Below are positions 47,273 to 64,000 of a DNA stretch of 64,000 nucleotides, piece after piece. Made by a program: the position numbers and the translations under genes. Source of the stretch: Candidatus Woesebacteria bacterium RIFCSPLOWO2_01_FULL_39_61 (lineage in GTDB: Bacteria; Patescibacteriota; Microgenomatia; UBA8517); assembly GCA_001793155.1 (NCBI GenBank), contig MGHI01000040.1, positions 3,209 to 67,208 on the forward strand, read 5' to 3'. Position 1 is the first letter of the stretch; each line of letters starts with the position of its first letter. Under the pieces are notes generated by a model that was not told the DNA's origin, did not search any database, and was given only the letters and a program-made list of their open reading frames with translations.

Positions 47273-47737
47273 ATGAAAGTAAAAATTACAAAGATACTCA
47301 CCAGTATTTTTCTTTTTCTATTCCTACTATTCTCCTTTAACAAAGTTACCTATGCTGGTATTTTACCCGGACCCGAAAGATGTACTCCCTCAGGTGGTGG
47401 ATTTTGGGGGTGGATAACAGAAGCCAATACTGGTATTGATACTGCAATTGGTTGTATACCTCTTGAAATCGGATTCTTCGGATCTTCGGGTGGCGCCCGA
47501 TCTTTTACCGCTTTTATGCTCCGTTGGGCAGCCGGCCTCGGAGGAGGAATTGCTTTTATACTTATAGTCTATGCGGGTTTTATGATTACTACCGCAGCAG
47601 GCAATCCCCAACGTCTGCAGGCGGGAAGAGAACTCTTAACCTCTGCCATATCCGGTCTACTGATGCTTATCTTCTCTGTTTTTATCCTGAGAGTCGTCGG
47701 AATTGATATTTTGGGCTTAGATGCTCTCGGATTGTAA
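47273..47737 (+). CDS. T4SS pilin-like protein (VirB2/TrbC-like, CPR type), paralog 1
   Basis: 154 aa. Signal peptide, Gly-rich region, then ...YAGFMITTAAGNPQRLQAGRELLTSAISGLLMLIFSVFIL (hydrophobic-motif-hydrophobic) as in the following seven paralogs. Confidence 0.45.
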   Translation: MKVKITKILTSIFLFLFLLFSFNKVTYAGILPGPERCTPSGGGFWGWITEANTGIDTAIGCIPLEIGFFGSSGGARSFTAFMLRWAAGLGGGIAFILIVYAGFMITTAAGNPQRLQAGRELLTSAISGLLMLIFSVFILRVVGIDILGLDALGL

Positions 47738-47748
47738 TAGTCATCAAA

Positions 47749-48072
47749 ATGGATATTGAAATTGCAGGACTACCGTTTTCTGATTGGGAAACACAAACTC
47801 TCCCTTTATTAGCCAATCAACCAATAGGGACTGTAATTAATACTTTTATAAGATACCTTTTTCCTATCGCCGGATTAGTCCTTTTGGCTTATTTAATCTT
47901 TGGAGGTTACAAATATCTCACCTCCATGGGTGATCCCAAAAAAATTCAGGAGTCGAGACTAAATATTACCTACGCAATTGTTGGGTTTGCAATTTTGATT
48001 GCGGCATATTGGGTAGTTCTTGTTGCTGCAAGGGTTCTTAATATTCCGGCAATAAATCAAATATTTAGGTAG
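47749..48072 (+). CDS. T4SS pilin-like protein, paralog 2
   Basis: 107 aa. ...LVLLAYLIFGGYKYLTSMGDPKKIQESRLNITYAIVGFAILIAAYWVV... Confidence 0.5.
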   Translation: MDIEIAGLPFSDWETQTLPLLANQPIGTVINTFIRYLFPIAGLVLLAYLIFGGYKYLTSMGDPKKIQESRLNITYAIVGFAILIAAYWVVLVAARVLNIPAINQIFR

Positions 48073-48087
48073 TCACAAGATACTGTT

Positions 48088-48402
48088 ATGCAAAAAATTG
48101 CCATCGATTTTTCAAGCAACTTTTTCGGGGCACCGGGTCATTTTCTTTCCACCCTCACCGGCGTAGGCACCCTTGCCTCAGTACTTCTTGCCAACGCACT
48201 TATTATTGCAGGGGTAGTTTTTATACTGCTTATTATCATTGGCGGAATACAAATGATTAGTGGCGCCGGCAAATCTCCCCAAGAAGTGGCGCGGGGCAAG
48301 GAAATTATTCTCGCCGCTATTCTTGGTTTTATCATAATTTTTGTTTCCTACTGGATAGTAAGAATTATAGAAAGATCATTTGGTGTTAACATTTTGGGTT
48401 AA
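48088..48402 (+). CDS. T4SS pilin-like protein, paralog 3
   Basis: 104 aa. ...IIGGIQMISGAGKSPQEVARGKEIILAAILGFIIIFVSYWIV... Confidence 0.5.
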   Translation: MQKIAIDFSSNFFGAPGHFLSTLTGVGTLASVLLANALIIAGVVFILLIIIGGIQMISGAGKSPQEVARGKEIILAAILGFIIIFVSYWIVRIIERSFGVNILG

Positions 48403-48420
48403 AGATCGTACAATCAATTT

Positions 48421-48750
48421 ATGAATCCCTTTGGAACTATCGCCCCGCCCCCAGGAGTAGCCAGTTTTGGCGGAGGTCTCGGCGGTCTCCCCGCCTTTCT
48501 TAATGTAATATTTAAAACCTTAATTATGATTGCAGGAGTTTATACTCTTCTAAATTTTGTCTTTGCAGGATATACCTTTCTTTCCGGAGCCGGGGATCCC
48601 AAAAAGATTCAGGATTCGTGGGCAAAGATATGGCAATCTATTATTGGACTAACGGTCGCAGCCGGATCTTTCGTGCTGGCGGCGCTTTTAGGACTTTTAC
48701 TTTTCAGGGATTCAAATGCAATACTCCAACTAAGAATCTTTGGACCTTAA
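48421..48750 (+). CDS. T4SS pilin-like protein, paralog 4
   Basis: 109 aa. ...FVFAGYTFLSGAGDPKKIQDSWAKIWQSIIGLTVAAGSFVLA... Confidence 0.5.
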   Translation: MNPFGTIAPPPGVASFGGGLGGLPAFLNVIFKTLIMIAGVYTLLNFVFAGYTFLSGAGDPKKIQDSWAKIWQSIIGLTVAAGSFVLAALLGLLLFRDSNAILQLRIFGP

Positions 48751-48771
48751 CTTTGAAATTTTGCATATAAA

Positions 48772-49143
48772 ATGAACCAGTTATCAATATCTATACCAAT
48801 AGGAAATTTAAGAGGCACAGGGCCGCTGGGTTTTGAGAATGTATCCTCTACACGCTCTGTTGGTTATATTCTAAATCAGGTTATATCCGTTTTGGTTGGG
48901 GCAATGACGTTATTTGCAACAATTTGGTTTTTGATCTTATTAATCACGGCTGCGTACAGCTGGATGAATGCGGGAGGGGATAAAGTGGCACTCGAGAACG
49001 CAAGACAAAAAATGTTACATGCAGTAATAGGCCTGACGATTGTCATCGTGGCAATTTTTGTTGCCGACTTTATCGGCTTTATTCTCGGCGTTCCGGACAT
49101 TTTGAACGTCGAAGGATTCATAACCAGAATACTAAATCCCTAA
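48772..49143 (+). CDS. T4SS pilin-like protein, paralog 5
   Basis: 123 aa. ...LITAAYSWMNAGGDKVALENARQKMLHAVIGLTIVIVAIFVA... Confidence 0.5.
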   Translation: MNQLSISIPIGNLRGTGPLGFENVSSTRSVGYILNQVISVLVGAMTLFATIWFLILLITAAYSWMNAGGDKVALENARQKMLHAVIGLTIVIVAIFVADFIGFILGVPDILNVEGFITRILNP

Positions 49144-49146
49144 GTT

Positions 49147-49521
49147 ATGATAACTTTTATTCCATCGGTTATCTACGCACAAGTATATCAACCGCCGGCA
49201 AGGCGAATTGTAAACCCTTTATTAAATGTAACTCTTCAAATATTAAGTGGGAATATTTTTATTTCACGCTTTCTTCCAGCTCTTTTAACTCTGCTTTTTG
49301 TTATCGGTTGCATTTATTTTCTTTTTATATTTACCCTGGGGGCAATCCAGTGGATCAATTCAGGGGGGGATAAAGTAAAACTTGAACAAGCAAGGGACAG
49401 GGTTACACAGGCGGTTATCGGATTGGGAGTTCTTTTGTCTGTCTATGGTGTTTTAAGTCTTCTGGAGTACTTCTTTGGAACGAATCTCAGGTCCTTTAAC
49501 ACCAACAGTATTAGGATTTAG
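49147..49521 (+). CDS. T4SS pilin-like protein, paralog 6
   Basis: 124 aa. MITFIPSVIYAQ signal. ...GAIQWINSGGDKVKLEQARDRVTQAVIGLGVLLSVYGVL... Confidence 0.5.
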   Translation: MITFIPSVIYAQVYQPPARRIVNPLLNVTLQILSGNIFISRFLPALLTLLFVIGCIYFLFIFTLGAIQWINSGGDKVKLEQARDRVTQAVIGLGVLLSVYGVLSLLEYFFGTNLRSFNTNSIRI

Positions 49522-49596
49522 GCGTCTAATTCAAAGCTAAATTACCTCTTGACAAGTGCCAATCGCTAACTTCATAATGACTATTAAGATAAATAT

Positions 49597-49944
49597 ATGA
49601 CAACTTTTCTGCCATCAACGGTTTTTGCACAGATAAATCTTACGCCTCGAGGACAGTTTACAACATTAAACAGTATAACTATCGGTAATATAATTTCTGC
49701 AATTATTATACTTGTTTTAATTGTTGCAGCTTTAGTCTTTTTCTTCATGCTAGTTTGGGGTGGCATTAAATATATAACATCGGGTGGTGATAAGGCCCAG
49801 ACAGAAGCAGCAAGAAGTCAAATTACAGCAGCTTTAATCGGTTTGGTGATAGTTTTTGCCGCTTGGGCTATTATAAATTTGGTTAACCTATTCTTCGGAA
49901 TAAACATACTTAACTTAAATATACCTAACGCGCAAGCTCCGTAA
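49597..49944 (+). CDS. T4SS pilin-like protein, paralog 7
   Basis: 115 aa. MTTFLPSTVFAQ signal. ...VWGGIKYITSGGDKAQTEAARSQITAALIGLVIVFAAWAIINLV... Confidence 0.5.
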   Translation: MTTFLPSTVFAQINLTPRGQFTTLNSITIGNIISAIIILVLIVAALVFFFMLVWGGIKYITSGGDKAQTEAARSQITAALIGLVIVFAAWAIINLVNLFFGINILNLNIPNAQAP

Positions 49945-49960
49945 AGCTAGGGTTAGGGTA

Positions 49961-49984
49961 AGCCCCGAAAGGGGCTTTTTTTTT
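49961..49984 (+). terminator. Rho-independent terminator
   Basis: AGCCCC-GAAA-GGGGCT followed by T8 (49977-49984), 17 nt after the stop of pilin paralog 7. Confidence 0.8.
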
Positions 49985-50047
49985 GGCAGGAAAAAATGCC
50001 TGGAGAATGTTATTGCCCCATTTCCCATCTTGCGTTACACTTAATTT

Positions 50048-50368
50048 ATGATTCCTTTGAATCCTTGCACTAACCCTGATTATGTAAGAGGTACCGTACC
50101 AACCTTGGCTTATCTCGAATGTCTATTTGGAAGAACAGCCAATATTATCTTGGGTTTGGCAGGAATTGCACTTTTTATTATGTTACTCATCGGTGGTTTT
50201 AGGTATATGACGTCAGGAGGAGATCCCAAAGCGCTTGATTCCGCCCAAAAAACCATTACCTATGCTATTATCGGGCTAGTTCTCACGGCTAGCTCCTATC
50301 TCTTCTTGCGCTTTGTCGGAGCAATAACCGGAGCTGATGTTTTTAATTTTTATATTTTCCGCCCCTAA
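50048..50368 (+). CDS. T4SS pilin-like protein, paralog 8
   Basis: 106 aa. ...LLIGGFRYMTSGGDPKALDSAQKTITYAIIGLVLTASSYLFL... Confidence 0.5.
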   Translation: MIPLNPCTNPDYVRGTVPTLAYLECLFGRTANIILGLAGIALFIMLLIGGFRYMTSGGDPKALDSAQKTITYAIIGLVLTASSYLFLRFVGAITGADVFNFYIFRP

Positions 50369-50371: not shown

Positions 50372-53182
50372 ATGAGGCTGCCTACTACAAAAATAGGATT
50401 ACTTCTAGAAACGCTTCTTTTTTTAATTATTATTATATTTTCAGTTAAGACGGCGAAGGCTCAAATTCCCCCGCCCTACGTTCCTTGTAATCAAGTAAGA
50501 AGTCCGGAGTTTCATTCATTACGTCCTTACCAAGCCAGTCCCTGCAACCAAGAAGCAACCGAGCTTGCTTTATATTGCGACAGTAGCTTTGTTCTACCTG
50601 ATACTTTTGTTATTGACAAAACGTTTTCAAATCCACCCACCAGCTGGGTTTATTCATACCTTGGCAATCCAATATCACCCGTGCGTCCTGAGGACTCTTT
50701 TAATCAACCTGCGTGCAGGTTCTGTGTGGGAAATTTCTGTGCTGTAAGTTTGGGAACAGCCTGTGTTGCCGACCTAAACCAGTGCCAAACTAATACAGAT
50801 TGCTTCAACAGCTGCAGAAACAATCTTGACGGCACCGAGACGTGCACTTTCCTCGTTAACCGAGAAAGAGACGTTGCGATTGATCTGTCCGGGGCAGAAT
50901 TCCCAATAATGGGAAATACCCAGGACGTTATAAATAGCCAAAACCTGTGGGGTAATAGCCTGCCTTTTGACGTCTTTGATGTTTCGGAACCGTTGGATGC
51001 TTACGACCCCACCAAAGTGAACGAGTATGTGAGTTGGTACCTTAACGGAATAATAAACAGGGCTGAATACAAAACTCTTGATCCCGATGACCCCAATGAC
51101 TTTCTTAAAATTACTGACTTCTCCGGACCCATAAGAAAATTACTCTCCTTTGAGAACCAAATTACCCAAAGGGTAAGTCAAATTAATGAAGCTAATGAAG
51201 GCGACGTTCGCCACAATCAGGTCGTGGGCTGTGACAATCTTACCGGTAACCCCACAGAGTGCTATCCACAGAGAGCTGGAGTAAGGGAAAGGAGACTGAG
51301 AGATTGGCTTCCCAACAACCTTCCGCCCTTAAGGGAAGCTTTTGATAACTTCTCAGACTACTGGGGGGCCTATACTGACTGGAGAAATGGAAATCCACGC
51401 TTTATCGGCAACCTCTTCGACTATATTCCCTTTTCTTCAACCGAGGACAGGAAAGGGCTCGACGAGGCAGTTTTTCAGTCTATTCAACCGGCTCAACCTT
51501 ACGTAAGAATTGTCTCGGCCACCCTTACCCAAACTCCGGCTGACTTATTCTTTGCCCACATCGAAGAAACCGCAGGATTGGCTAATATTCTTCAGAAAAC
51601 TTTCGCTTTTCGAGGGGCGGCTTTAGACGGTCCTCCTGCCAATATCGCGCCTCCGGCAAATGCCTACTGCGACCTGGTCGAGGTAAGAAGCAACCCCGGA
51701 GATGATCTTTTTGCCGGGGAAATTCGCGTCCACCTCGAATACGAGGCACAAATTGACTGTAGTTTCCTCATCCCTTATCTCTGGCCGAATCCTGCCGAAG
51801 GAGTGCCTCCCGGAAATGTCTGTGAGAATCTGGCCGGGGGAACATGTCAGTACATTCCAGAAAATTATCAGTGTGATTACGTCTATGGGCCAGTAGATTG
51901 TCCACCAGATCCACTTAACCCTGAAGTTATATACTGTGCCGTCAATTGCCGTCCACTATCAAACACCGCGGCCTGTGCCGATCTCGGCAAACAGTGCTAT
52001 CCAAGCACTTGGGGATCCTGTACTGGTGTCACCGAAAATGTTTTTGTCTGCCCAGCCGGTGTTGACTGTACTGCCGTTATTTGCCAGGCGGGCAGCTTTT
52101 GCGACGGTGACGGTTGTTTGCCGGGATCCTTTTGTGCAAATAATTACTGTCCTCCGGGTTATGATTGTTACGATAATCCCTGCTCGGGGTCAGATGTCTG
52201 CGCCAACGGTTGTGTCCAGCCAATCACTGAGCCAAACCTGACCCAGCAGTGTCCAGTTACTGTCAACGTTAATCTCGGTACAGTTACTCATACCCCGAAA
52301 GCCGACGAGCTTTGGAGCCGATTTGTTTCGGGTCCGGCCGGGATCTTCAGAAGAGTATTCCCTAAGATAGAACCCGGTGCGCCGATTGAAGCCTTGTGGG
52401 ACATTCCGGCTTCGACACCGGTAACATTCACCGCCCCGGGACTGGTGTATGTCGGAATTCCGGGATCAGGACGTACCCAGCCCGAGCTTTACTTCCCCCA
52501 CATAGGAGGAATCCACCAATATTTCTTAAAATGTATTCAAAGAGCTCTAAGGCCGCAGGGATTCGGAGAGCCCTGCATATCGGGCTCCCCCGGCACGAAT
52601 GCGCCGACCGATAGCACCTGTCCCAATGTTCCCGATTCCGCAATACCAGCCAGGTGGATCGGGCCTGCAGGATCAGGAATAAAAGACCATTTTATATGGG
52701 CGGCGGATCTTTGGTGCGGGGGGGTTGGAGAGAATATGGCTGAAGAGTGTTATAACTACGTAGTTCAACAATCATTGGCGGCCGGAGTAAACCCCGCCTT
52801 TTCACTTTCCATCTGGCTTCATGAGTCGGCAGCCAGCAATTATACCTGCAGCGGTGCCGGTGCCCAGGACTTTGGTATAAATGATCCGTCGATTGCCATG
52901 AACCTGGTTCTGCAACTTCAGCGTTTCCTTACTCTACCTTACTCAAGCACATATCTTTACTGTCGTACGCAGGCACAATCCCGCGGCCTTGATCCCATGT
53001 TCGGATTTCTGGATCGTTTCCGTGACGGTAATTGTGATTTTGTTCAAAATGGATCCAATGCCGGGTGGAGTTTTTATCAAAACATGATGAGCTTTGCTTG
53101 GCCTTTAGTTACTGAGCCCATAAGAAATTGTGTAACAGGCTGGTTTGGGATATTGTGGCCTACCGACTTTGCCTGTCCGTAA
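50372..53182 (+). CDS. Large Cys-rich secreted protein with C-terminal lysozyme-like/lytic-transglycosylase-like region (candidate T4SS-associated cell-wall hydrolase or pilus adhesin)
   Basis: 936 aa. Signal peptide (LLLETLLFLIIIIFSVKTAKAQ), about 70 Cys including clustered CxxC-rich stretches (residues ~480-620). The C-terminal ~130 aa (...NPAFSLSIWLHESAASNYTCSGAGAQDFGIN...) resemble the ES...S/GAxG catalytic region of SLT/lysozyme-like domains. Confidence 0.45.
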   Translation: MRLPTTKIGLLLETLLFLIIIIFSVKTAKAQIPPPYVPCNQVRSPEFHSLRPYQASPCNQEATELALYCDSSFVLPDTFVIDKTFSNPPTSWVYSYLGNPISPVRPEDSFNQPACRFCVGNFCAVSLGTACVADLNQCQTNTDCFNSCRNNLDGTETCTFLVNRERDVAIDLSGAEFPIMGNTQDVINSQNLWGNSLPFDVFDVSEPLDAYDPTKVNEYVSWYLNGIINRAEYKTLDPDDPNDFLKITDFSGPIRKLLSFENQITQRVSQINEANEGDVRHNQVVGCDNLTGNPTECYPQRAGVRERRLRDWLPNNLPPLREAFDNFSDYWGAYTDWRNGNPRFIGNLFDYIPFSSTEDRKGLDEAVFQSIQPAQPYVRIVSATLTQTPADLFFAHIEETAGLANILQKTFAFRGAALDGPPANIAPPANAYCDLVEVRSNPGDDLFAGEIRVHLEYEAQIDCSFLIPYLWPNPAEGVPPGNVCENLAGGTCQYIPENYQCDYVYGPVDCPPDPLNPEVIYCAVNCRPLSNTAACADLGKQCYPSTWGSCTGVTENVFVCPAGVDCTAVICQAGSFCDGDGCLPGSFCANNYCPPGYDCYDNPCSGSDVCANGCVQPITEPNLTQQCPVTVNVNLGTVTHTPKADELWSRFVSGPAGIFRRVFPKIEPGAPIEALWDIPASTPVTFTAPGLVYVGIPGSGRTQPELYFPHIGGIHQYFLKCIQRALRPQGFGEPCISGSPGTNAPTDSTCPNVPDSAIPARWIGPAGSGIKDHFIWAADLWCGGVGENMAEECYNYVVQQSLAAGVNPAFSLSIWLHESAASNYTCSGAGAQDFGINDPSIAMNLVLQLQRFLTLPYSSTYLYCRTQAQSRGLDPMFGFLDRFRDGNCDFVQNGSNAGWSFYQNMMSFAWPLVTEPIRNCVTGWFGILWPTDFACP

Positions 53183-58757: not shown

Positions 58758-58989
58758 AAAATGGAAGAAATATCACTTTAAGAAATTCCTCTAACGTCAT
58801 AGAGGCCTGGTTTAAAATACTCTGAAAGGTTCCCATCGCAACTTCCTTGTGGTTGGGAATAATGATAGTTTGAAGTTTACCTCTCCAAAAACCCTTAAGT
58901 TTGACGTGGCTTCCCTTCTGAGATACTTTGTAAAATCCTGCCTTTTTAAAAGATTTTATGATTACTCTGGCTGAGTAAAGCTTAGGCAT
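58723..58989 (-). CDS. hicA: HicA family toxin (mRNA interferase)
   Basis: Start taken at MPKLYSAR. ...KKAGFYKVSQKGSHVKLKGFWRGKLQTIIIPNHKEVAMGTFQSILNQASMTLEEF matches the HicA core (GSH..., P.H...G.L..IL). The C-terminal tail runs into repeat R1. Confidence 0.6.
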   Translation of the reverse strand: MPKLYSARVIIKSFKKAGFYKVSQKGSHVKLKGFWRGKLQTIIIPNHKEVAMGTFQSILNQASMTLEEFLKVIFLPFFFKPEAFSQNL

Positions 58990-59197
58990 AAATAAGTCGT
59001 AGCTCAGGGTTTTTTGGAACACCAACGGTCGGAAGTTTAACGTTCTCGTCTTCCAACAGCAATTCAACGGCTTCCTTTAAATTGTTAAGGGCCTCTTTTT
59101 CTGTTCTACCTTGGCTGGCAAGCTCAATTCCGATGAGTTTAGCAACAAACAATTTTTCTTCCTGCCAAACAAGGGCTGACAATTTCCTCTTCGCCAT
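58982..59197 (-). CDS. hicB: HicB family antitoxin (short form)
   Basis: Start taken at MAKRKLSALVWQEEKLFVAKLIGIELASQGRTEKEALNNLKEAVELLLED, the UPF0150/HicB N-terminal pattern. Overlaps hicA by 8 nt. Confidence 0.6.
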   Translation of the reverse strand: MAKRKLSALVWQEEKLFVAKLIGIELASQGRTEKEALNNLKEAVELLLEDENVKLPTVGVPKNPELRLIYA

Positions 59198-59381: not shown

Positions 59382-59633
59382 ATGCTACAAAAAATTTTAC
59401 AAAATAAGCCTTATCTGGCCTGGTATGTTAAAAATAGAAGTACGCTTTCGGACGTGAGTACGTTGGAACATATTTTATCCTACGGTAATTGGGACGATAT
59501 TTTGGAAGCAGAAAAGACCGTGGGAATCTCTAAAATGAAGTCTCTTTTTCAAGAAATCGCATCAAAAAAAAGAGTAAACCTCAAACCACAAACGCTCAAT
59601 TTCTTTCAAAACTATTTCGATAAATATGCATGA
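59382..59633 (+). CDS. Hypothetical small protein, possible cognate partner (AbiEi-like antitoxin?) of the downstream nucleotidyltransferase
   Basis: 83-aa ORF overlapping the downstream AbiEii-like gene by 8 nt (translational coupling). No confident family match. Confidence 0.3.
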   Translation: MLQKILQNKPYLAWYVKNRSTLSDVSTLEHILSYGNWDDILEAEKTVGISKMKSLFQEIASKKRVNLKPQTLNFFQNYFDKYA

Positions 59634-60237
59634 AGAAATTCTATCGGAAAATCAAAAGAGGCTTCTTCCTCTCCTAAATAGATTCTCGGGAAAATTCGGG
59701 CTGGTTGGCGGAACCGCAATTGCACTACATATTGGCCATAGAAGGTCCCTCGACCTTGACCTGGCAACTCTTGAAAGTACAAAAAACGAAAAAGTAGCGA
59801 ACGAAGTAAGAAGTCTTTACTCAATAGAAAGTGTTCTTGTCGATGAAGTAAACGAATTAAGTATAGTTGTAGAATCCGTCAAGCTCACTTTCTTTACCTA
59901 CCCTTTCCACATTGAATTTACAGACAAGCTGACCCAAGTTTTAAAAATGCCAGATTTAGTAACACTATCTTCTATGAAAGCTTACGCTCTGGGGAGAAGA
60001 GCAAAATGGAAGGATTATGTGGATTTGTATTTTGTTTTTAAGAATTACTCTTTAAAGGATGTTGTAGATAAGTCAAAAGGGATCTTCAAGGGTGAGTTTA
60101 ACGAAAAATTATTTAGAGAAGAACTTAGTTATTTTGAAGACATAGATTATTCAGAAGAAATTGACTATATGGAAGGCTTTAAGACGAACGACGACGTCAT
60201 TAGAAATGCTCTAAAGGAAGTCAGCCTTCAGAAGTAA
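59626..60237 (+). CDS. AbiEii/AbiGii-type nucleotidyltransferase toxin (DUF1814 family)
   Basis: 203 aa. ...FGLVGGTAIALHIGHRRSLDLDL... is the GGTAL..GHR.S.D.D motif of AbiEii-family NTases. Confidence 0.65.
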   Translation: MHEEILSENQKRLLPLLNRFSGKFGLVGGTAIALHIGHRRSLDLDLATLESTKNEKVANEVRSLYSIESVLVDEVNELSIVVESVKLTFFTYPFHIEFTDKLTQVLKMPDLVTLSSMKAYALGRRAKWKDYVDLYFVFKNYSLKDVVDKSKGIFKGEFNEKLFREELSYFEDIDYSEEIDYMEGFKTNDDVIRNALKEVSLQK

Positions 60238-60307
60238 TAACTAAAACCTGGTGACCAGTTAACTTGAAGCCAACCTTTTTCAGTACAGTTTTCGCTCACT
60301 CCCAGCT

Positions 60308-60385: not shown

Positions 60386-60435
60386 AGCACGTTCACGAGG
60401 TAAGGTAAAGGGTGAAGGTTAAAGGGTAAAAGAAA

Positions 60436-60822
60436 ATGACTATTCCCTCCCAAGTCACTAGCTACAAAAAATTACAACTATATCAGAAGGCCAGGCTTTT
60501 AGTTCTTAAAACATACCAGATTACATCCTTATATCCAAAGTCAGAATTGTATTCATTGGTTCCTCAGATGCGAAGATCAGCCATGTCTGTACTTGCAAAT
60601 ATTGTAGAAGGATATTCAAAAGAAAGCGCACCTGAATATGCCAGATTTTTAACTATTTCTATCGGATCTATAACTGAACTCGAGGTTTATTTAGACATCT
60701 CTTTAGATTTGGGTTACCTTTCAAAAGATAAACTTGATAAAATGAATACAATAATAATTGAAGTAAAAAGACTTTTGTACGGATCAAGAAAAAGGGCTCG
60801 AGAAAAGATAAGTATAAAGTAA
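60436..60822 (+). CDS. Four-helix-bundle protein (23S rRNA IVS protein / Avd-like fold family)
   Basis: 128 aa. LQLYQKARLLVLKTYQITSLYPKSELYSLVPQMRRSAMSVLANIVEGYSKESAPEYARFLTISIGSITELEVYLDISLDLGYL is a strong match to the family consensus. Confidence 0.7.
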   Translation: MTIPSQVTSYKKLQLYQKARLLVLKTYQITSLYPKSELYSLVPQMRRSAMSVLANIVEGYSKESAPEYARFLTISIGSITELEVYLDISLDLGYLSKDKLDKMNTIIIEVKRLLYGSRKRAREKISIK

Positions 60823-60856: not shown

Positions 60857-61882
60857 ATGGATCAAGAACACCCGATACCGCAACAAATTTCAGCCTATCA
60901 ATTCAGGCTGGTCGGAGATATGACCTTGAAACAGTTTTTTCAGGTTGCTGCCGGAGTTTTAATTTCTTTGGTTATTTATTCTTCGGGTCTGACGCCGTAT
61001 ATTAAATGGCCGCTGATAATCCTTTCATTTTTGGCGGGCATTGCTTTTGCCTTTTTTCCGCTTGAAGATAGACCGCTCTCTAAATGGCTTTTCCTTTTTG
61101 TAAAAGCAATATACTCTCCTACAATTTATACCTGGAAAAAAAAAGTTGTCGAACCTCAGTTTTTCCAACCCGAACCGATTTCTCAGCCTACTTCGATGCC
61201 TCAAACACCTGCCATAGAGGATTTGGCAACTAAACAGGCTCCTGTACCAAGTCTGGAGCCTTCTCCGAAGGAGTTTCAAAAATTTGAACAGCGCGAAAAA
61301 GAATTTATGTCAAAGGTGTCGGAACAATTTGAGTCAGCAAAAAAAGTTGAACTTGGCGGGAAAGCTCCACGACAAGTTCCTCTGGATAATGATAAGGTTA
61401 AGGTTCCCCAAGTTCCGGCCCTGACGGTCGAAAAGACAGAGAAAAAGCCCGTCGTTCCAATCCCGGAACTTAGCGTTTCGGACGTCGGAAGCGAAATAAC
61501 CGCTTCCGTCGGACAAAGAATGAACGAGGTTAAACTCGCGGAATTTTCTCCGGAAGCAGCACCCCCAACCCCTCCCACAAAATCCAACATTGTTGTGGGA
61601 CAGGTCATAGATTCAAAAGGCATGATTATTGAAAATGCAATTCTTGAAATTAAAGATCCTGAAGGCCGTTCGGTAAGAGCTCTCAAAAGCAACAAGCTAG
61701 GGCACTTTATGATTGTTACGCCTTTGGCAAACGGTAAATATGAGATAATAACTGAGAAAGAAGGGTTTACCTTTGAACCGATATCCTTTGAAGCAAGAGG
61801 AGATATTATACCACCGGTTTTCGTCAAAGCCAATCAAATTGAAGCTAATCTAGCTACTAATCAACCAACAATGGTTAACTAA
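60857..61882 (+). CDS. Membrane protein: N-terminal PrgI/VirB3-like TM hairpin, Pro-rich linker, C-terminal carboxypeptidase-regulatory-like beta-sandwich
   Basis: 341 aa. ISAYQFRLVGDMTLKQFFQVAAGVLISLVIY...PLIILSFLAGIAFAFFP resembles PrgI-family proteins that precede VirB4 in Gram-positive-type T4SS. The C-terminal VVGQVIDSKGMIIENAILEIKDPEGRSVRALKSNKLGHFMIVTPLANGKYEI resembles the CarboxypepD_reg fold. Confidence 0.4.
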   Translation: MDQEHPIPQQISAYQFRLVGDMTLKQFFQVAAGVLISLVIYSSGLTPYIKWPLIILSFLAGIAFAFFPLEDRPLSKWLFLFVKAIYSPTIYTWKKKVVEPQFFQPEPISQPTSMPQTPAIEDLATKQAPVPSLEPSPKEFQKFEQREKEFMSKVSEQFESAKKVELGGKAPRQVPLDNDKVKVPQVPALTVEKTEKKPVVPIPELSVSDVGSEITASVGQRMNEVKLAEFSPEAAPPTPPTKSNIVVGQVIDSKGMIIENAILEIKDPEGRSVRALKSNKLGHFMIVTPLANGKYEIITEKEGFTFEPISFEARGDIIPPVFVKANQIEANLATNQPTMVN

Positions 61883-61896
61883 AAAAATATTACAAA

Positions 61897-62565
61897 ATGG
61901 CAATACCTTTTCTAAGTACTCCTGATAAAACAATTCTTTCAACCACGCAGGACCTTATTCCTTTAGCTGATATTGTCGACGGAGTTGTGATCTATAAAAA
62001 CGGAGGCGCTGCCCAAATCATGGAATCAACTTCTCTTAATTTTGGCCTCTTAAGCGAAAACGAACAAGAAGCAGTTATTGCATCATATGCGGGACTTCTT
62101 AACTCTTTCAATTTCCCAGTCCAAATCGTGGTCAGGTCACAAAAAAAGGATATCTCTATTTATATGAATTTCTTAAACGAAGCCCAATCTAAAATTAATA
62201 ATCCAAAATTGATTCATATAATGGAAGACTATAAAAATTTTATAGCCGAAGCGATTAAAAAGAAAAATGTGCTTAGTAAAAAGTTCTATATCGTGGTTTC
62301 CTTTTCTCCTTTCGAACTAGGATTAGGAAAGTCTTTAGTAACAACTTTTAGGCCATCGAAAAAAGGGGCACTCTTACCATTTCCCAAATCCTACGTTGTA
62401 AGAAAAGCAAAAATTGCTCTTTTCCCTAAAAGAGAACACTTAGCAAGACAGGCAAGAAGATTAAATATTCAGCTAAAACCCCTGTCGAACGAAGACCTTA
62501 TCCGACTTTTTTATAATACTTATAACCCTGAACCTCCTGTAAAGGAAATGGGGATTCTGGGATAA
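61897..62565 (+). CDS. VirB4/TrbE N-terminal domain-like protein (CagE_TrbE_VirB-like), in frame with the downstream ATPase ORF
   Basis: 222 aa. DLIPLADIVDGVVIYKNGGAAQIMESTSLNFGLLSENEQEAVIASYAGLLNSFNFPVQIVVRSQ follows the VirB4 N-domain pattern (L..D.I..L.DGS....I..G..FEL..E.E.......FN.LL......V.IY..LVR). Terminated by a single TAA. Confidence 0.4.
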   Translation: MAIPFLSTPDKTILSTTQDLIPLADIVDGVVIYKNGGAAQIMESTSLNFGLLSENEQEAVIASYAGLLNSFNFPVQIVVRSQKKDISIYMNFLNEAQSKINNPKLIHIMEDYKNFIAEAIKKKNVLSKKFYIVVSFSPFELGLGKSLVTTFRPSKKGALLPFPKSYVVRKAKIALFPKREHLARQARRLNIQLKPLSNEDLIRLFYNTYNPEPPVKEMGILG

Positions 62566-62655
62566 GCTGCTGCGGAATTGATACTGCAGCAGTCTCGAAC
62601 TTTGTGTGAGACTAGCTTGTTCACTCCTCGCCCAAAGGCGAGTTTGAATAAATAT

Positions 62656-64000
62656 ATGAAGCTGCCGAGCCTATTTAGAAAAAAACCAAAAGAAAAAGAG
62701 AGTCAAAAACCGGATATAAATAAAGCCGATCAGGTCATTAGCCCTACTGACCAAAAATCTCCGACAGCTACAGCCGCAGGGGTTAATAACGGCAAAAACA
62801 TACCTCCACCGGATAAGCCAAAAATAGATGACCCCGTTGTTGCAATTAGTCAAAATGAAAGTCTTATAAATGTAATTGCTCCCGAGATGGTCGAGTTGGA
62901 TTTTGACTTTTTTAGGGTTAACAATGTCTATTTGCGCACGCTTTTCATTTCGGGTTATCCGAGATTTGTTTCTCCGGGATGGCTAGAACAGGTCATTAAC
63001 TTTAATAGCTCCCTCGACATCTCATTTTTTATCTATCCGATTGAGGGCAAAGGAGTGCTGGATGATCTCCTACACAAGGTTGCCGAAATGGAAGCGGAAA
63101 TTGCAACCGATCTTGAGCGTGGAAAAATAATCAATCCGGCAACACAGGCAAGGCTTGACGACGCAAGGCTTCTGCAAGATGAATTGGTCAAAGGAGCCGA
63201 GCATTTTTTTGAATTCGCTTTCTATATTACTATCCGCGCCTTTGACTTTGAGCAACTAAATCAAATTACTAAACAAGTCGAGTCAACGCTGGGGTCGCTT
63301 CTTATAACCGCAAAGCACAGCACTCTCGATATGGAAAACGGGTTCCTTTCAACCTCTCCCTTCGGCTTAGACAGAATTTCGATTACCCGCAACATGGATA
63401 CAACTTCTTTGTCAACAACCTTCCCCCTCACCTCGGCTGAGTTGTCCAGCGACAAAGGAGTGCTTTACGGAATTAACTCTCAAAACGGATCTTTTATTAT
63501 TTTTGATCGGTTCTCGATGGAAAATTCCAACATGACCGTGTTCGCGACTAGCGGAGCTGGAAAATCTTATTTCGTTAAACTCGAATCTCTGAGGTCTCTA
63601 ATGCTTGGGTCGGAGGTAATTATCATTGACCCCGAAAGCGAATATAAAGCGCTATCCGACGCCGTCGGAGGAGAATATCTCACATTTTCTTTTAATTCCC
63701 CAAGCAAAATCAATCCCTTCGGGCTTTCCCAAATTCATGAGGAGGGTGAAAATCAATTAAACCTAAAAATTCTTTCGCTGCATTCGCTTTTCAAAATTAT
63801 TATGGGAGCGATCACTCCTCCCCAAGAAGCCCTTCTGGATCGGGCTCTCGTCGAAACTTACAGATCAAAAGGAATTGATATGGATCCTACAACCCAAACT
63901 AAGGAACCTCCTCTAATGGAGGATTTATACAAAGTATTAATCGGAATGGAGGTTCCGGAAGCCCTCGATTTGGCCGCTCGAATCGAAAAGTATGTTCGAG
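62656..64000 (+). CDS. virB4: VirB4/TrbE/CagE-family conjugal-transfer ATPase (5' partial; runs off window end)
   Basis: ...DFDFFRVNNVYLRTLFISGYPRFVSPGWLEQVINFNSSLDISFFIYP... is the typical VirB4 core start. Walker A FATSGAGKSY. The ORF is open to the window end, so it was not listed in the ORF track. Confidence 0.7.
   Translation, partial: MKLPSLFRKKPKEKESQKPDINKADQVISPTDQKSPTATAAGVNNGKNIPPPDKPKIDDPVVAISQNESLINVIAPEMVELDFDFFRVNNVYLRTLFISGYPRFVSPGWLEQVINFNSSLDISFFIYPIEGKGVLDDLLHKVAEMEAEIATDLERGKIINPATQARLDDARLLQDELVKGAEHFFEFAFYITIRAFDFEQLNQITKQVESTLGSLLITAKHSTLDMENGFLSTSPFGLDRISITRNMDTTSLSTTFPLTSAELSSDKGVLYGINSQNGSFIIFDRFSMENSNMTVFATSGAGKSYFVKLESLRSLMLGSEVIIIDPESEYKALSDAVGGEYLTFSFNSPSKINPFGLSQIHEEGENQLNLKILSLHSLFKIIMGAITPPQEALLDRALVETYRSKGIDMDPTTQTKEPPLMEDLYKVLIGMEVPEALDLAARIEKYVR

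What the first reader, a model, noticed from the sequence alone, without database searches (positions are those of the whole stretch)
47273..64000. Type IV secretion / conjugation-like locus with eight tandem VirB2-like pilin paralogs, a Cys-rich giant secreted protein, PrgI-like and VirB4 components
Eight consecutive small ORFs (47273..50368) share a strict architecture. Each has a signal peptide (often ending ...AQ), a hydrophobic helix, the motif Y(K/M)(Y/F)(L/I)TSGGD(P)K...A(R/Q)..I..A(I/L)IGL, and a second hydrophobic helix. This is the topology of TrbC/VirB2 pilins, and eight tandem paralogs is unusual.

The paralogs are followed by a 936-aa protein with about 70 Cys whose C-terminus looks lysozyme/SLT-like, a candidate VirB1-like hydrolase or tip adhesin. 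Next is a ~8-TM protein (VirB6/TrbL-like topology). Further downstream are a PrgI/VirB3-like membrane protein with a carboxypeptidase-regulatory-like beta-sandwich tail and a VirB4 ATPase. No coupling protein or relaxase is visible in the window.

The assembly looks like a Gram-positive/CPR-type T4SS, but with a pilin-gene expansion and accessory proteins (the Cys-rich giant, a 1067-aa soluble protein, two four-helix-bundle proteins) not part of described systems. In an episymbiotic CPR cell this could be a DNA-uptake or host-attachment pilus apparatus rather than a conjugation machine.
Basis: partly seen in the sequence, partly recalled or inferred. Interest (0 to 1): 0.8.

Follow-up and report, generated by a model that had tools for sequence, protein, structure and literature searches.

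The report
Woesebacteria type IV secretion locus, eight pilins
This is the chromosomal type IV secretion-like machine already described for ultrasmall Patescibacteria (CPR bacteria); new here, its eight small pilin-like genes turn out to be eight ancient, individually conserved genes in a fixed order, not a recent or variable expansion.

Summary
Eight consecutive small ORFs (47273-50368) all match Pfam T4SS_pilin. They are followed by a 936-aa Cys-rich protein with a C-terminal lysozyme-like domain, a polytopic membrane protein whose model best matches R388 VirB6, a PrgI/VirB3-like protein, a TrsD-like protein and a CD1110-type VirB4.

Two details were wrong. Only the first pilin has a signal peptide, and the giant protein has 46 Cys, not about 70. 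No relaxase or coupling protein lies in the window or in the 8 kb beyond it. The locus ends at dnaN/dnaA.

This kind of system is already published (Wang 2023; Quinonero-Coronel 2025, which reports VirB2 arrays of 2-11 genes). The finding is therefore a new member of a known kind.

What this analysis adds, from the 80 closest Microgenomatia loci (those with informative names are mostly Woesebacteria):
- The eight pilins are positional orthologues, 50-72% identical across genomes against about 28% between paralogues. p7 is almost as conserved as VirB4.
- The Cys-rich lysozyme protein, the VirB6-like protein and a membrane metallopeptidase are core parts.
- The four-helix-bundle, HicAB and AbiE genes are variable insertions.
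- The 1067-aa soluble protein occupies a conserved antisense slot whose occupants are barely alignable between genomes.

The function is inferred, not shown: a heteromeric surface filament or conduit for host interaction.

The parts
42391..44340 (-). 649-aa protein. Last gene of a divergently transcribed operon conserved next to the pilin array. Association with the system is possible but unproven.
   Evidence: Found upstream of SpoIID in 32 related loci in the same order and strand. No Pfam family.
44365..44589 (-). 74-aa DUF5657 small membrane protein in the conserved divergent operon.
   Evidence: PF18901, E 4e-18. Syntenic in 33 loci.
44596..45306 (-). 236-aa membrane protein with a bacterial PH (bPH_2) domain, in the conserved divergent operon.
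   Evidence: PF03703, E 6e-4, below the cut-off. Syntenic in 38 loci.
45402..47186 (-). 594-aa SpoIID-domain protein with an N-terminal coiled coil. Candidate peptidoglycan lytic transglycosylase, divergent from the pilin array.
   Evidence: PF08486, E 1e-13. Present on the minus strand directly upstream of p1 in 50/80 loci, median 56% identity.
47273..47737 (+). Pilin-like p1 (154 aa). The only paralogue with a signal-like N-terminus. It also has an extra ~60-aa Gly/Trp-rich segment with two Cys. It is the one member that is duplicated in some genomes.
   Evidence: T4SS_pilin 26.2 bits against cut-off 26.6. Hydropathy. Mean orthologue identity 67%. All extra copies in the 9-10-gene arrays are p1-like.
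47749..48072 (+). Pilin-like p2 (107 aa).
   Evidence: T4SS_pilin 41.7 bits. Positional orthologue in 34/37 arrays.
48088..48402 (+). Pilin-like p3 (104 aa).
   Evidence: T4SS_pilin 34.6 bits. 37/37 positional orthology.
48421..48750 (+). Pilin-like p4 (109 aa).
   Evidence: T4SS_pilin 18.8 bits, sub-threshold. 36/37 positional orthology.
48772..49143 (+). Pilin-like p5 (123 aa).
   Evidence: T4SS_pilin 17.7 bits, sub-threshold. 36/37 positional orthology.
49147..49521 (+). Pilin-like p6 (124 aa), the closest paralogue of p7.
   Evidence: T4SS_pilin 26.6 bits. 26/37 best-match p6 and 11/37 best-match p7. p6-p7 identity is 44%.
49549..49578 (+). Promoter-like site (TTGACA-18-CATAAT) in the 75-nt gap before p7.
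   Evidence: 11/12 consensus match. The total number of such sites in the region is no higher than in shuffles, so this is weak evidence.
49597..49944 (+). Pilin-like p7 (115 aa). Best family match and most conserved paralogue. Candidate major subunit.
   Evidence: T4SS_pilin 44.1 bits and a weak TrbC hit. Mbov_0395 pilin-like 29.2 bits. Mean identity 72% among orthologues. Median 62% to the window copy, second only to VirB4. At least 120 clusters at 68-99% identity.
49960..49977 (+). Canonical intrinsic-terminator-like hairpin plus T-run after p7.
   Evidence: Seen after p7 in only 5/38 arrays.
50048..50368 (+). Pilin-like p8 (106 aa).
   Evidence: T4SS_pilin 39.9 bits. 37/37 positional orthology.
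50372..53182 (+). 936-aa exported Cys-rich (46 Cys) protein. The N-terminal ~740 aa have no detectable relative of known fold. The C-terminal ~170 aa form a lysozyme/lytic-transglycosylase-like domain (candidate catalytic E818-S819). Functional VirB1 analogue.
53216..53641 (+). 141-aa 23S_rRNA_IVP four-helix-bundle protein. A variable insertion, not a component.
   Evidence: PF05635, E 3e-13. IVP genes occupy different intergenic sites in different loci.
53659..55392 (+). 577-aa (570 from the ATG at 53680) polytopic membrane protein with a ~150-aa exported N-terminal domain behind a signal-like N-terminal helix. Divergent VirB6-like platform.
   Evidence: No Pfam, NCBIfam or PDB sequence hit. 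More than 1345 homologues, none with a Pfam domain. AF2 pLDDT 77. Top five Foldseek PDB hits are R388 TrwI/VirB6, prob 0.93-1.0, TM 0.40-0.45. Present in 80/80 loci by construction.
55486..58689 (-). 1067-aa soluble, acidic protein with no TM segment, in a positionally conserved antisense slot. Sequence is hyper-divergent. Role unknown; an effector or adaptor role is only a guess.
   Evidence: 60/62 loci have one 526-1083-aa minus-strand ORF between the VirB6-like gene and PrgI. Only 38 homologues among 1.84 billion representatives. Occupants split into clusters with no hhalign signal between them. No Pfam or PDB hit.
58723..59197 (-). HicA/HicB-like toxin-antitoxin pair. An insertion.
   Evidence: HicA_toxin, E 2e-13. 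Gene calls. Present in 1-5 of 80 loci. Bounded by a repeated 30-nt core.
59382..60237 (+). 83-aa ORF plus AbiEii-like nucleotidyltransferase toxin. An insertion.
   Evidence: PF08843, E 1e-8. Present in 1-2 of 80 loci.
60436..60822 (+). 128-aa 23S_rRNA_IVP four-helix-bundle protein. A variable insertion.
   Evidence: PF05635, E 3e-31. Variable positions across loci.
60857..61882 (+). 341-aa PrgI/VirB3-like membrane protein with a conserved C-terminal CarboxypepD_reg-like beta-sandwich.
   Evidence: PF12666 26.6 bits against cut-off 27, and PF13620. The full length is conserved in 62 orthologues. Matches the gene at the same position in a Pontibacillus locus.
61897..62565 (+). 222-aa TrsD-like protein, equivalent to the N-terminal domain of VirB4.
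   Evidence: Matches model positions 2-121 of the CD1110 VirB4 family and TrsD. TraC-like (weak) hit on record. 61 orthologues, 57% identity.
62656..64000 (+). VirB4-type ATPase. The first 448 of 633 aa are in the window.
   Evidence: P-loop_TraG, DUF87 and CagE_TrbE_VirB hits. Full protein scores 359.8 bits against conju_CD1110, cut-off 325. 36-38% identical to Bacillota and Actinomycetota VirB4.

Best explanation
The locus is the chromosomal, replication-origin-proximal type IV secretion-like apparatus characteristic of Patescibacteria. The host genome is a Candidatus Woesebacteria (Microgenomatia) MAG. The apparatus descends from the conjugation machinery of monoderm bacteria.

Shown here:
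- A CD1110/MPF-FATA-type VirB4 ATPase, a separate TrsD-like protein that corresponds to the VirB4 N-domain, and a PrgI/VirB3-like membrane protein.
- A polytopic membrane protein with a VirB6-like fold.
- Eight T4SS_pilin-family two-helix proteins.
- A 936-aa exported Cys-rich protein ending in a lysozyme-like domain.
- A membrane-anchored metallopeptidase just after VirB4.
- A conserved SpoIID-domain protein upstream.
- No relaxase, coupling ATPase or VirB11 nearby.
- The eight pilin-like genes are eight old orthologous groups kept in a fixed order under purifying selection.

Inferred mechanism:
- VirB4, together with TrsD and PrgI, extracts pilin-like subunits from the membrane and polymerises them on the VirB6-like platform. 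The product would be a heteromeric surface filament or conduit.
- p7 would be the major subunit. The other seven would be specialised minor, base or tip subunits. They may stand in for the VirB5 and VirB8-10 parts for which no candidate was recognised in this locus.
- The glycosidase and peptidase(s) would cut peptidoglycan, the cell's own and possibly the host's.
- By analogy with Southlakia epibionticum, where the homologous locus is essential for epibiotic growth, the machine serves host interaction rather than conjugation. That could mean contact, or import or export of macromolecules.
For: Component identities:
- VirB4 scores 359.8 bits against NCBIfam conju_CD1110 (cut-off 325). TrsD222 matches model positions 2-121 of the same family.
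- All eight small ORFs hit PF18895.
- The VirB6-like fold: the top five PDB hits are R388 TrwI, prob 0.93-1.0. The hit chains have 261-272 modelled residues, more than the 226-aa TrwJ, so they must be TrwI.
- Peptidase_M23 is found in 6/17 orthologues of the gene after VirB4, and the window genome's copy carries a HEAGHH motif.

Context:
- The locus is followed by dnaN and dnaA.
- VirB4 is the only Walker A ORF in the window.

Conserved order in the 80 closest Microgenomatia loci (mostly Woesebacteria where named):
- The order is SpoIID(-), p1-p8, Cys-rich, VirB6-like, antisense ORF, PrgI, TrsD, VirB4, peptidase, o191.
- 37/50 complete loci have exactly eight pilins, and the position-versus-paralogue matrix is nearly diagonal.
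- Orthologues are 50-72% identical against 27.6% for paralogues.
- Measured against the window copy, p7 is 62% identical, second only to VirB4 at 74%.

The same pilin-like x2 / large membrane protein / PrgI / TrsD / VirB4 / 1050-aa M23 peptidase order occurs in a Pontibacillus megaplasmid.

Literature: the T4SS and its pilin series are essential in Southlakia (PMC10633639). Patescibacterial T4SS features are described in PMC12102498.
Against: - No pilin-like ORF reaches significance against TrbC/VirB2 (best E 0.65), solved pilins or R388 TrwL.
- The VirB6 assignment rests on fold only (Foldseek E 0.03, TM 0.40-0.45). There is no sequence or profile signal.
- Seven of the eight pilins lack a signal peptide, unlike VirB2 propilins.
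- Nothing here shows that a filament exists, what is transported, or in which direction.
- p7 as major subunit rests on conservation, plus a promoter and terminator pair that is conserved in only 5/38 arrays.
- A coupling protein could be encoded elsewhere in the genome. Only 72 kb of it was seen.
- The 80 loci are the closest of 526 relatives, so the fixed set of eight is shown only for this clade.
Confidence: 0.7

Rival explanations
1. The machine is a DNA-import apparatus of the H. pylori ComB or archaeal Ced type. These are T4SS derivatives that also lack a relaxase and a coupling protein and use VirB2-like small proteins.
For: No relaxase or T4CP in the window or the next 8 kb. VirB4 gives a weak NCBIfam match to CedB, E 9e-15, far below the cut-off. 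CPR cells cannot make nucleotides de novo (stated in the review).
Against: In Southlakia a comEC deletion abolishes competence but not viability, while the T4SS remains essential. The essential role there is therefore not ComEC-dependent DNA uptake (PMC12857230). No com genes lie in this locus. The best VirB4 matches are conjugative CD1110-type, not Ced or ComB.
Confidence: 0.12
2. The pilin array is a diversity generator. Multiple divergent VirB2 paralogues would provide antigenic or host-range variation, as proposed for Bartonella and Anaplasma and suggested for Patescibacteria in PMC12102498.
For: Paralogues within the array are only about 28% identical. The N-terminal exported tails of p1, p2 and p8 are poorly conserved. 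p1 copy number varies from 1 to 3.
Against: Each of the eight positions has its own orthologue in the same order in 37/37 eight-gene arrays. Orthologues are 50-72% identical while the VirB6-like protein is only about 36%. The p7 core is nearly invariant. This is the signature of eight fixed, non-redundant roles, not of diversifying copies.
Confidence: 0.08
3. The eight small proteins are not filament subunits. They would be integral-membrane parts of the translocon, for example a hetero-oligomeric ring or channel lining, and the name 'pilin' would be misleading.
For: There is no significant sequence match to VirB2/TrbC or solved pilins. There is no cleavable signal peptide in 7/8. Eight fixed single-copy genes would suit a stoichiometric complex.
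Against: All eight hit the curated T4SS_pilin family, and p7 gives a sub-threshold match to the Mbov_0395 pilin-like family. They have the VirB2-like two-helix topology with a basic loop. Published structure-based annotation of the Southlakia homologues calls them pilins. p7 is far more conserved than the others and has its own promoter-like site, which fits a major-subunit/minor-subunit arrangement.
Confidence: 0.2
4. The locus is a decaying integrative conjugative element that happens to sit in this genome.
For: VirB4, TrsD, PrgI and the pilin-like genes are homologous to those of monoderm conjugative elements. TA modules and a serine recombinase gene lie in the window.
Against: The same gene order next to dnaA/dnaN is kept in dozens of genomes whose VirB6-like proteins are only 30-43% identical. 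The ORFs are intact and VirB4 is 74% identical across them. The TA modules are present in only 1-5 of 80 loci. No relaxase is present.
Confidence: 0.03

Closest known systems
Patescibacteria-clade T4SS (Southlakia epibionticum SEML1_0006-0019, Wang et al. 2023; survey by Quinonero-Coronel et al. 2025)
   Same: MPF-FATA-like VirB4, adjacent TrsD and PrgI/VirB3, a tandem array of divergent VirB2-like pilins, peptidoglycan hydrolases next to virB4, no relaxase or T4CP nearby, a chromosomal site close to dnaA (window data).
   Different: This locus has eight pilins; Southlakia is reported to have six. The VirB6 and VirB1 equivalents here escape the HMMs used in the survey, which reported VirB6 as 'scarce' in Microgenomatia. 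They were recognised here only by fold. The glycosidase is fused to a ~740-aa Cys-rich region of unknown fold. A hyper-divergent antisense ORF sits between the VirB6-like gene and PrgI. The published suggestion that the arrays serve host-range or antigenic variation does not fit the fixed orthology found here.
Monoderm MPF-FATA conjugation systems of the CD1110/pGO1 type, including a Pontibacillus sp. ALD_SL1 megaplasmid locus, and the Mycoplasma ICE-derived NCBIfam families Mbov_0395 (pilin-like) and Mbov_0397 (VirB4)
   Same: VirB4 is 36% identical. TrsD (E 1.5e-30), PrgI, and two pilin-like genes are homologous to p1-p8 (53 and 46 bits to the paralogue HMM). A large membrane protein sits at the VirB6 position and a ~1050-aa M23 peptidase sits after VirB4, all in the same order. 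For the Mycoplasma families the evidence is sub-threshold NCBIfam matches only: p7 to Mbov_0395, VirB4 and TrsD222 to Mbov_0397. No Mycoplasma locus was examined.
   Different: The Pontibacillus locus has two pilin-like genes, not eight. It has no Cys-rich lysozyme giant and no detectable similarity of its 779-aa membrane protein to the 577-aa family. Conjugative members also carry a relaxase and T4CP, according to the literature.
Agrobacterium VirB / R388 Trw (MPF-T) system
   Same: The functional layout matches: VirB2-type two-helix pilin, VirB3, VirB4, a VirB6 platform and a VirB1 lytic transglycosylase. The 577-aa model matches TrwI/VirB6 best among all PDB chains.
   Different: There are no VirB5 or VirB7-11 equivalents and no outer-membrane complex. 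There is no sequence-level similarity to TrwL or TrwI. The pilins lack leader peptides.
Relaxase-less DNA-import T4SS (H. pylori ComB; archaeal Ced)
   Same: A VirB4-type ATPase plus small VirB2-like membrane proteins without a relaxase or coupling protein. Weak CedB match.
   Different: Best homology is to conjugative monoderm VirB4, not Ced or ComB. Published genetics in Southlakia separates the essential role of the T4SS from ComEC-dependent DNA uptake.
VirB2 paralogue arrays of Bartonella and Anaplasma
   Same: Several tandem virB2-like genes in one T4SS locus (as cited in PMC12102498).
   Different: Those arrays are interpreted as variation devices. Here each paralogue is an old, separately conserved orthologous group.

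Membership tests
Patescibacteria-clade T4SS (as defined in PMC12102498) | VirB4 related to the MPF-FATA class of monoderm conjugation systems | tested here: met
   NCBIfam conju_CD1110 359.8 bits, above cut-off 325, model positions 185-735. 36-38% identity to Bacillota and Actinomycetota VirB4.
Patescibacteria-clade T4SS (as defined in PMC12102498) | TrsD-like protein (VirB4 N-domain homologue) encoded next to virB4 | tested here: met
   The 222-aa ORF immediately upstream matches N-terminal positions of the VirB4 families (E 4e-9, 3e-6) and TrsD (E 2e-4, well below the family cut-off). E 1.5e-30 to the equivalent Pontibacillus gene.
Patescibacteria-clade T4SS (as defined in PMC12102498) | PrgI/VirB3-like membrane protein near virB4 | tested here: met
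   PF12666, E 9e-6, 26.6 bits, which is 0.4 bit under the gathering score. It covers model positions 1-81 of 91. Two genes upstream of VirB4. 62 full-length orthologues.
Patescibacteria-clade T4SS (as defined in PMC12102498) | Array of VirB2-like (PF18895/PF04956) pilin genes near virB4 | tested here: met
   Eight tandem ORFs, all with PF18895 as best hit and five at or above the gathering score. They lie 12-15 kb upstream of virB4 in the same conserved cluster.
Patescibacteria-clade T4SS (as defined in PMC12102498) | No relaxase or coupling protein in the cluster; chromosomal site near dnaA | tested here: met
   VirB4 is the only Walker A ORF in the 64 kb. Pfam scans of the locus and of the largest ORFs find no relaxase or T4CP. 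dnaN and dnaA lie 4-6 kb after virB4. The rest of the genome was not examined.
Pfam T4SS_pilin (PF18895) | Score at or above the curated gathering threshold (26.6 bits) | tested here: met
   p2 41.7, p3 34.6, p6 26.6, p7 44.1 and p8 39.9 bits meet it. p1 26.2, p4 18.8 and p5 17.7 bits do not, but they align over the same core and are positional members of the array.
TrbC/VirB2 pilins (PF04956; solved T-, F- and pKM101-type pilins) | Detectable sequence or profile similarity to VirB2/TrbC | tested here: not met
   Best is p7 against PF04956, E 0.65, 10.7 bits. A paralogue profile against all PDB chains finds no pilin. hhalign against R388 TrwL gives prob 0.3%.
TrbC/VirB2 pilins (PF04956; solved T-, F- and pKM101-type pilins) | Two hydrophobic helices joined by a short basic loop | tested here: met
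   Hydropathy profile and alignment show two TM segments flanking the S-G-G-D-P-K-K/R loop in all eight.
TrbC/VirB2 pilins (PF04956; solved T-, F- and pKM101-type pilins) | Long cleavable leader peptide on the propilin | tested here: not met
   Only p1 has an N-terminal hydrophobic signal-like segment. p2-p8 start with 20-45 non-hydrophobic residues and cannot be extended upstream.
TrbC/VirB2 pilins (PF04956; solved T-, F- and pKM101-type pilins) | Polymerises into an extracellular filament | not testable with these tools
   Needs microscopy or biochemistry.
VirB6/TrbL polytopic T4SS platform | Match to VirB6/TrbL/PrgH sequence models | tested here: not met
   No Pfam or NCBIfam family. Family profile against PDB finds nothing. 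tblastn against plasmids finds nothing. hhalign against TrwI gives prob 0.15%.
VirB6/TrbL polytopic T4SS platform | At least five TM helices and a fold resembling solved VirB6 | tested here: inconclusive
   The AF2 model (pLDDT 77) has about 8-9 long helices. Foldseek against PDB ranks R388 TrwI/VirB6 chains 1-5, prob 0.93-1.0, but with E 0.03-0.34 and TM 0.40-0.45. The next unrelated hit has prob 0.13.
VirB6/TrbL polytopic T4SS platform | Encoded inside the T4SS gene cluster | tested here: met
   It always lies between the Cys-rich protein and PrgI/TrsD/VirB4 in the related loci.
VirB1-like / lysozyme-like peptidoglycan glycosidases (SLT superfamily; Pfam SLT_3) | Lysozyme-like fold | tested here: met
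VirB1-like / lysozyme-like peptidoglycan glycosidases (SLT superfamily; Pfam SLT_3) | Match to the family HMM and a conserved catalytic Glu | tested here: inconclusive
   The window protein itself has no Pfam hit. 16 of 43 aligned homologues hit SLT_3 at the same C-terminal position. The E818-S819 motif is present in all 27 sequences aligned in that block. Catalysis is untested.

The most novel reading that the evidence does not exclude
In Woesebacteria the T4SS-like machine would be built from a fixed set of eight non-redundant pilin-like proteins forming an obligate heteromeric filament or conduit. p7 would be the shaft. p1, with its extra Cys-bridged head, would be the tip. The others would replace the VirB5 and VirB8-10 parts for which no candidate was recognised in this locus. 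The positionally conserved but hyper-divergent antisense soluble protein would be its translocated, host-directed substrate, and the Cys-rich lysozyme giant would breach the host wall. That would make this a structurally new class of T4SS output device, not a VirB2 homopolymer.
Probability: 0.2. Interest if true: 0.75.

Novelty: new member of a known kind. Interest (0 to 1): 0.45.

Why it matters
T4SS-like loci are among the few envelope machines shown to be essential for the epibiotic life of Patescibacteria, and nobody yet knows what they move or what they build.

This locus adds no new kind of system. The comparison it allowed does sharpen the question in three ways.
- The pilin arrays of this clade are eight ancient, separately conserved genes. 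This argues for a multi-subunit structure and against a variation device, and it names p7 as the subunit to look for in filaments.
- It supplies candidates for the VirB6 and VirB1 equivalents that HMM surveys reported as scarce in Microgenomatia.
- It flags a fast-evolving soluble protein at a fixed position as a candidate substrate.

It also shows that pilin-like genes accompany CD1110-type VirB4 in at least one Bacillota replicon. The pilins may therefore be ancestral to this monoderm lineage rather than borrowed from diderm systems.

Tried and rejected
- Sequence-level links to canonical parts all failed. The family profile of the 577-aa protein found nothing in PDB. The same protein against plasmids by tblastn gave no match. 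hhalign against R388 TrwI gave prob 0.15%.
- The pilin paralogue profile against PDB hit only designed helical hairpins that share a 'GDP' loop. hhalign against R388 TrwL gave prob 0.3%.
- The idea that p7 is set apart by its own terminator is not general. A terminator-like hairpin follows p7 in only 5/38 arrays, similar to other positions.
- The idea that the antisense soluble proteins carry a T4SS-type basic C-terminal signal is inconclusive. Their C-terminal 40 aa are more basic than the rest (z 0.99), but the SpoIID control shows the same (1.02), and the sequences are not independent.
- The idea that all occupants of the antisense slot are one family is unsupported. An iterative HMM reached 16/62, single linkage gave clusters of 25/19/6/4/2/2, and hhalign between clusters gave prob below 4%.
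- The 1067-aa protein, HicAB, AbiE and IVP were first judged 'not conserved' from BLAST. That verdict was revised for the 1067-aa protein once the constant 2-5.7-kb gap was inspected.
- The third homologue search, with p7, returned only close Woesebacteria orthologues. The age of the eight-gene set outside this clade could not be tested.

Full report
**Source and context.** The window is part of contig MGGV01000010.1 of assembly GCA_001792585.1. Its proteins are named as coming from Candidatus Woesebacteria. tRNA genes, a tmRNA, dnaG and, just past the window end, dnaN, dnaA, rpmH, rnpA and yidC show that the region is chromosomal and close to the replication origin.

**Check of the observation.** Eight + strand ORFs of 104-154 aa lie at exactly the stated coordinates, separated by 3-103 nt.
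- All eight have Pfam PF18895 (T4SS_pilin) as their best family. p2, p3, p6, p7 and p8 reach the gathering score, p1 misses it by 0.4 bit, and p4 and p5 are sub-threshold.
- They share a hydrophobic helix, a (T/S)-(S/A)-G-G-D-(P)-K loop and a second hydrophobic helix. They are otherwise only 17-29% identical to p1.
- Two stated details are wrong. Only p1 has an N-terminal signal-like hydrophobic segment. p2-p8 begin with 20-45 non-hydrophobic residues and cannot be extended upstream.
- The 936-aa protein has 46 cysteines, not about 70.

**The other genes.**
- VirB4 (633 aa in full) scores 359.8 bits against the NCBIfam CD1110 family of VirB4-like conjugal ATPases, above the curated cut-off of 325. 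It aligns to model positions 185-735.
- The 222-aa ORF just before it aligns to positions 2-121 of the same model and to TrsD. The VirB4 N-domain is therefore a separate protein.
- The 341-aa ORF is PrgI/VirB3-like at its N-terminus. It carries a carboxypeptidase-regulatory-like beta-sandwich that is kept in all 62 orthologues.
- The two 'four-helix-bundle' proteins belong to the 23S_rRNA_IVP family.
- Between them lie a HicA/HicB pair and an AbiEii-type toxin module.
- VirB4 is the only ORF of at least 120 aa in the 64-kb window with a Walker A motif. There is therefore no VirD4 or VirB11 here. No relaxase domain was found in any scanned ORF.

**Comparative genomics.** The 577-aa membrane protein has more than 1345 homologues, none with a Pfam domain. 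A family alignment retrieved 526 genomic relatives. The 80 closest loci were kept; their titles name Woesebacteria, Microgenomates or simply Patescibacteria, and many are generic or mislabelled.
- In these genomes that protein is only 30-43% identical to the window copy. The gene order is nevertheless kept: SpoIID-domain gene (minus strand), p1 to p8, Cys-rich protein, 577-aa protein, a large minus-strand ORF, PrgI, TrsD, VirB4, a large membrane peptidase and a 191-aa protein.
- Of 50 loci with full flanks, 37 have exactly eight pilin-like ORFs.
- In those 37, the ORF at each array position best matches the window paralogue of the same position in 37, 34, 37, 36, 36, 26, 37 and 37 cases. The exceptions at position 6 best-match p7, its closest paralogue.
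- Across 38 arrays, proteins at the same position are on average 50-72% identical (p1 67%, p7 72%). Paralogues within an array are 27.6% identical.
- Median identity to the window copy is 74% for VirB4, 62% for p7, 57% for TrsD, 54% for p1, 39-50% for the other pilins, 44% for PrgI, 36% for the 577-aa protein and 34% for the Cys-rich protein.
- The core of p7 is almost invariant.
- Where arrays have nine or ten genes, every extra copy is p1-like.
- The eight genes are therefore eight old orthologous groups under purifying selection, not a recent or diversifying expansion. This holds for the clade sampled, the 80 closest of 526 relatives.

**The Cys-rich protein.** It has more than 445 homologues.
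- The window copy hits no Pfam model. Sixteen of 43 aligned relatives hit SLT_3 (PF18896, lysozyme-like) at the C-terminus, and some carry an N-terminal NAGPA phosphodiester glycosidase domain.
- An AlphaFold2 model (mean pLDDT 80) has a helical C-terminal domain. Its best Foldseek matches are g-type lysozyme, a C. difficile glucosaminidase and SltB1.
- The motif W-L-H-E818-S-A-A-S-N-Y contains a Glu present in all 27 sequences aligned in that block.
- The first ~740 residues, which include a run of about 20 Cys between residues 484 and 627, found no structural relative.

**The 577-aa protein.** Sequence and profile methods find nothing.
- Its AlphaFold2 model (pLDDT 77, about 8-9 long helices behind an exported N-terminal domain) has the R388 stalk protein TrwI/VirB6 as its five best PDB matches. 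Probabilities are 0.93-1.0, E 0.03-0.34 and TM 0.40-0.45.
- The next unrelated hit has probability 0.13.
- The hit chains have 261-272 modelled residues, more than the whole 226-aa TrwJ/VirB5, so they are TrwI.
- This is moderate, fold-only support for a divergent VirB6. It fits the published remark that VirB6 is 'scarce' in Microgenomatia because of extreme divergence.

**After VirB4.** The 1100-aa protein has a charged cytoplasmic N-terminal part, an Ala/Gly-rich and multi-TM middle, and an exported C-terminal part with a HEAGHH zinc-protease-like motif. Six of 17 orthologues carry Peptidase_M23 there and two carry an N-terminal DnaJ domain. The 191-aa protein that follows is bitopic and conserved, and remains unassigned.

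**Upstream.** The SpoIID-domain protein is a candidate lytic transglycosylase. It is followed on the minus strand by a bPH_2 membrane protein, a DUF5657 protein and a 649-aa protein. All four are syntenic with the array wherever the flank reaches. Whether they belong to the machine or merely travel with it is open.

**Genes that are not components.** HicAB, AbiE and the IVP genes are present in 1-19 of 80 loci, at varying intergenic positions.

**The 1067-aa soluble protein.** It first looked non-conserved, with BLAST hits in 3 of 80 loci.
- However, every locus has a gap of 2-5.7 kb between the VirB6-like gene and PrgI. In 60 of 62 loci this gap holds one minus-strand ORF of 526-1083 aa.
- These ORFs have essentially no TM segment, about 30% charged residues and a net acidic charge.
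- The window protein has only 38 detectable homologues among 1.84 billion representative proteins.
- The occupants of the slot fall into clusters that profile-profile comparison does not connect.
- The slot is conserved and the sequence is not. This means either very fast evolution or repeated replacement.
- A basic C-terminal tail is present on average, but the SpoIID control shows the same, so it is not informative.

**What is already known.**
- Wang et al. 2023 showed by Tn-seq that the T4SS of Southlakia epibionticum and its series of predicted pilins are essential for epibiotic growth. They noted the lack of coupling and relaxase proteins (PMC10633639).
- Quinonero-Coronel et al. 2025 surveyed Patescibacteria (PMC12102498). 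They described the MPF-FATA-like VirB4 clade, TrsD, PrgI, the rarity of relaxases and the proximity to dnaA. They also described 441 VirB2 arrays of 2-11 genes, especially in Microgenomatia and Saccharimonadia, with about 25% identity within arrays. They suggested that the arrays aid adaptation to different hosts.
- A 2025 review repeats this and calls the pilins unique among monoderm T4SS (PMC12857230).
- The finding is therefore a further member of a described kind.

**Relation to ordinary monoderm systems.** The closest plasmid-borne VirB4 with an informative annotation (36% identity) lies on a Pontibacillus megaplasmid.
- That locus reads: small membrane proteins, two pilin-like genes (one named Mbov_0395 family by NCBI), a 779-aa membrane protein, a PrgI-like gene, a TrsD-like gene, VirB4 and a 1050-aa M23 peptidase.
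- Both pilin-like genes match the window paralogue HMM at 53 and 46 bits. The TrsD-like gene matches at E 1.5e-30 and VirB4 at E 2.5e-121.
- The module of pilin-like genes, platform, PrgI, TrsD, VirB4 and large peptidase therefore exists outside Patescibacteria. The pilins need not have been borrowed from diderm systems.

**Mechanism.**
- Shown: the parts list, its conservation, and the absence of DNA-processing partners nearby.
- Inferred from established T4SS biology: in the R388 model, VirB4 hexamers with VirB3 feed VirB2 to a VirB6/VirB5 stalk. By analogy, the ATPase module would extract the two-helix subunits from the membrane and assemble them on the VirB6-like platform, while the glycosidase and peptidase(s) open the wall.
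- Eight separately conserved subunits, one of them (p7) nearly as constrained as the ATPase, point to a heteromeric structure with a major subunit and specialised minor subunits.
- The function, host contact or exchange, rests on analogy with Southlakia.
- Rivals are DNA import (ComB/Ced-like), a variation device, membrane-resident translocon parts and a decaying ICE. They are weighed in their own entries.

**Verdict.** The interest is moderate. It lies in the fixed eight-member pilin set, the fold-level candidates for VirB6 and VirB1, the hyper-divergent antisense slot and the Bacillota counterpart.

Noticed in passing
window 55486-58689 (-); loci L003-L081, between the VirB6-like gene and PrgI: A positionally conserved antisense slot. 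60 of 62 related loci hold one 526-1083-aa soluble acidic ORF here, yet the occupants are barely or not at all alignable between clades. The window copy has 38 homologues among 1.84 billion representatives.
   Followed up: yes
window 58666-58762, 59241-59278, 60307-60390: A ~30-nt core A(T/G)TTTGTGAAAACGCTTCAGG(G/T)TTGAAA occurs three times and bounds the HicAB module and the orf83-AbiEii module. On the minus strand it carries a promoter-like -35 box. In addition, 42 nt covering the -10 box and the first codons of the 1067-aa gene are duplicated at 60307-60348 (95%). The TA modules therefore look inserted into that gene's promoter region, with the promoter duplicated.
   Followed up: partly
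window 53216-53641 and 60436-60822; e.g. L020, L025, L028, L043, L062, L076: 23S_rRNA_IVP (PF05635) four-helix-bundle genes sit at different intergenic positions of the T4SS cluster in different genomes, even inside the pilin array. This suggests they behave as small mobile or selfish genes.
   Followed up: partly
L083 (Pontibacillus sp. ALD_SL1 plasmid NZ_CP062975.1, 351-361 kb): A Bacillota megaplasmid carries the same order: two pilin-like genes, a large membrane protein, PrgI-like, TrsD-like, CD1110 VirB4 and a 1050-aa M23 peptidase. It lies next to a flagellar gene cluster, with no relaxase annotated in the 25 kb seen. The plasmid is typed non-mobilizable.
   Followed up: partly
window 42391-47186 (-): A four-gene minus-strand operon (SpoIID-domain protein, bPH_2 protein, DUF5657, 649-aa protein) is conserved divergently from the pilin array across related genomes. 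DUF5657 is itself a ~74-aa two-helix membrane protein.
   Followed up: partly
L002 12665-15967 and its orthologues (alignment A4): The large membrane protein after VirB4 swaps its ends between genomes. The C-terminus is M23 peptidase in 6/17, the window genome's copy (L002) carries a HEAGHH HExxH-type motif there, and the N-terminus is DnaJ in 2/17.
   Followed up: partly
window 17700-32548 (-): A run of about ten consecutive minus-strand ORFs of 390-520 aa. One hits glycosyltransferase family 87 and the others tested have no Pfam hit. They are possibly paralogous membrane glycosyltransferases. The region has strongly positive AT skew.
   Followed up: no
window 34925-36436 (+) with tRNA-Ser genes at 36406-36586: A large serine recombinase gene lies immediately beside two tRNA-Ser genes. 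Further tRNAs and the tmRNA follow within 4 kb. This may mark an integrated element.
   Followed up: no
window 6540-9865 (+): Two adjacent proteins with Peptidase_C39-like domains. One has a TPR repeat and the other has four Big_5 Ig-like domains.
   Followed up: no
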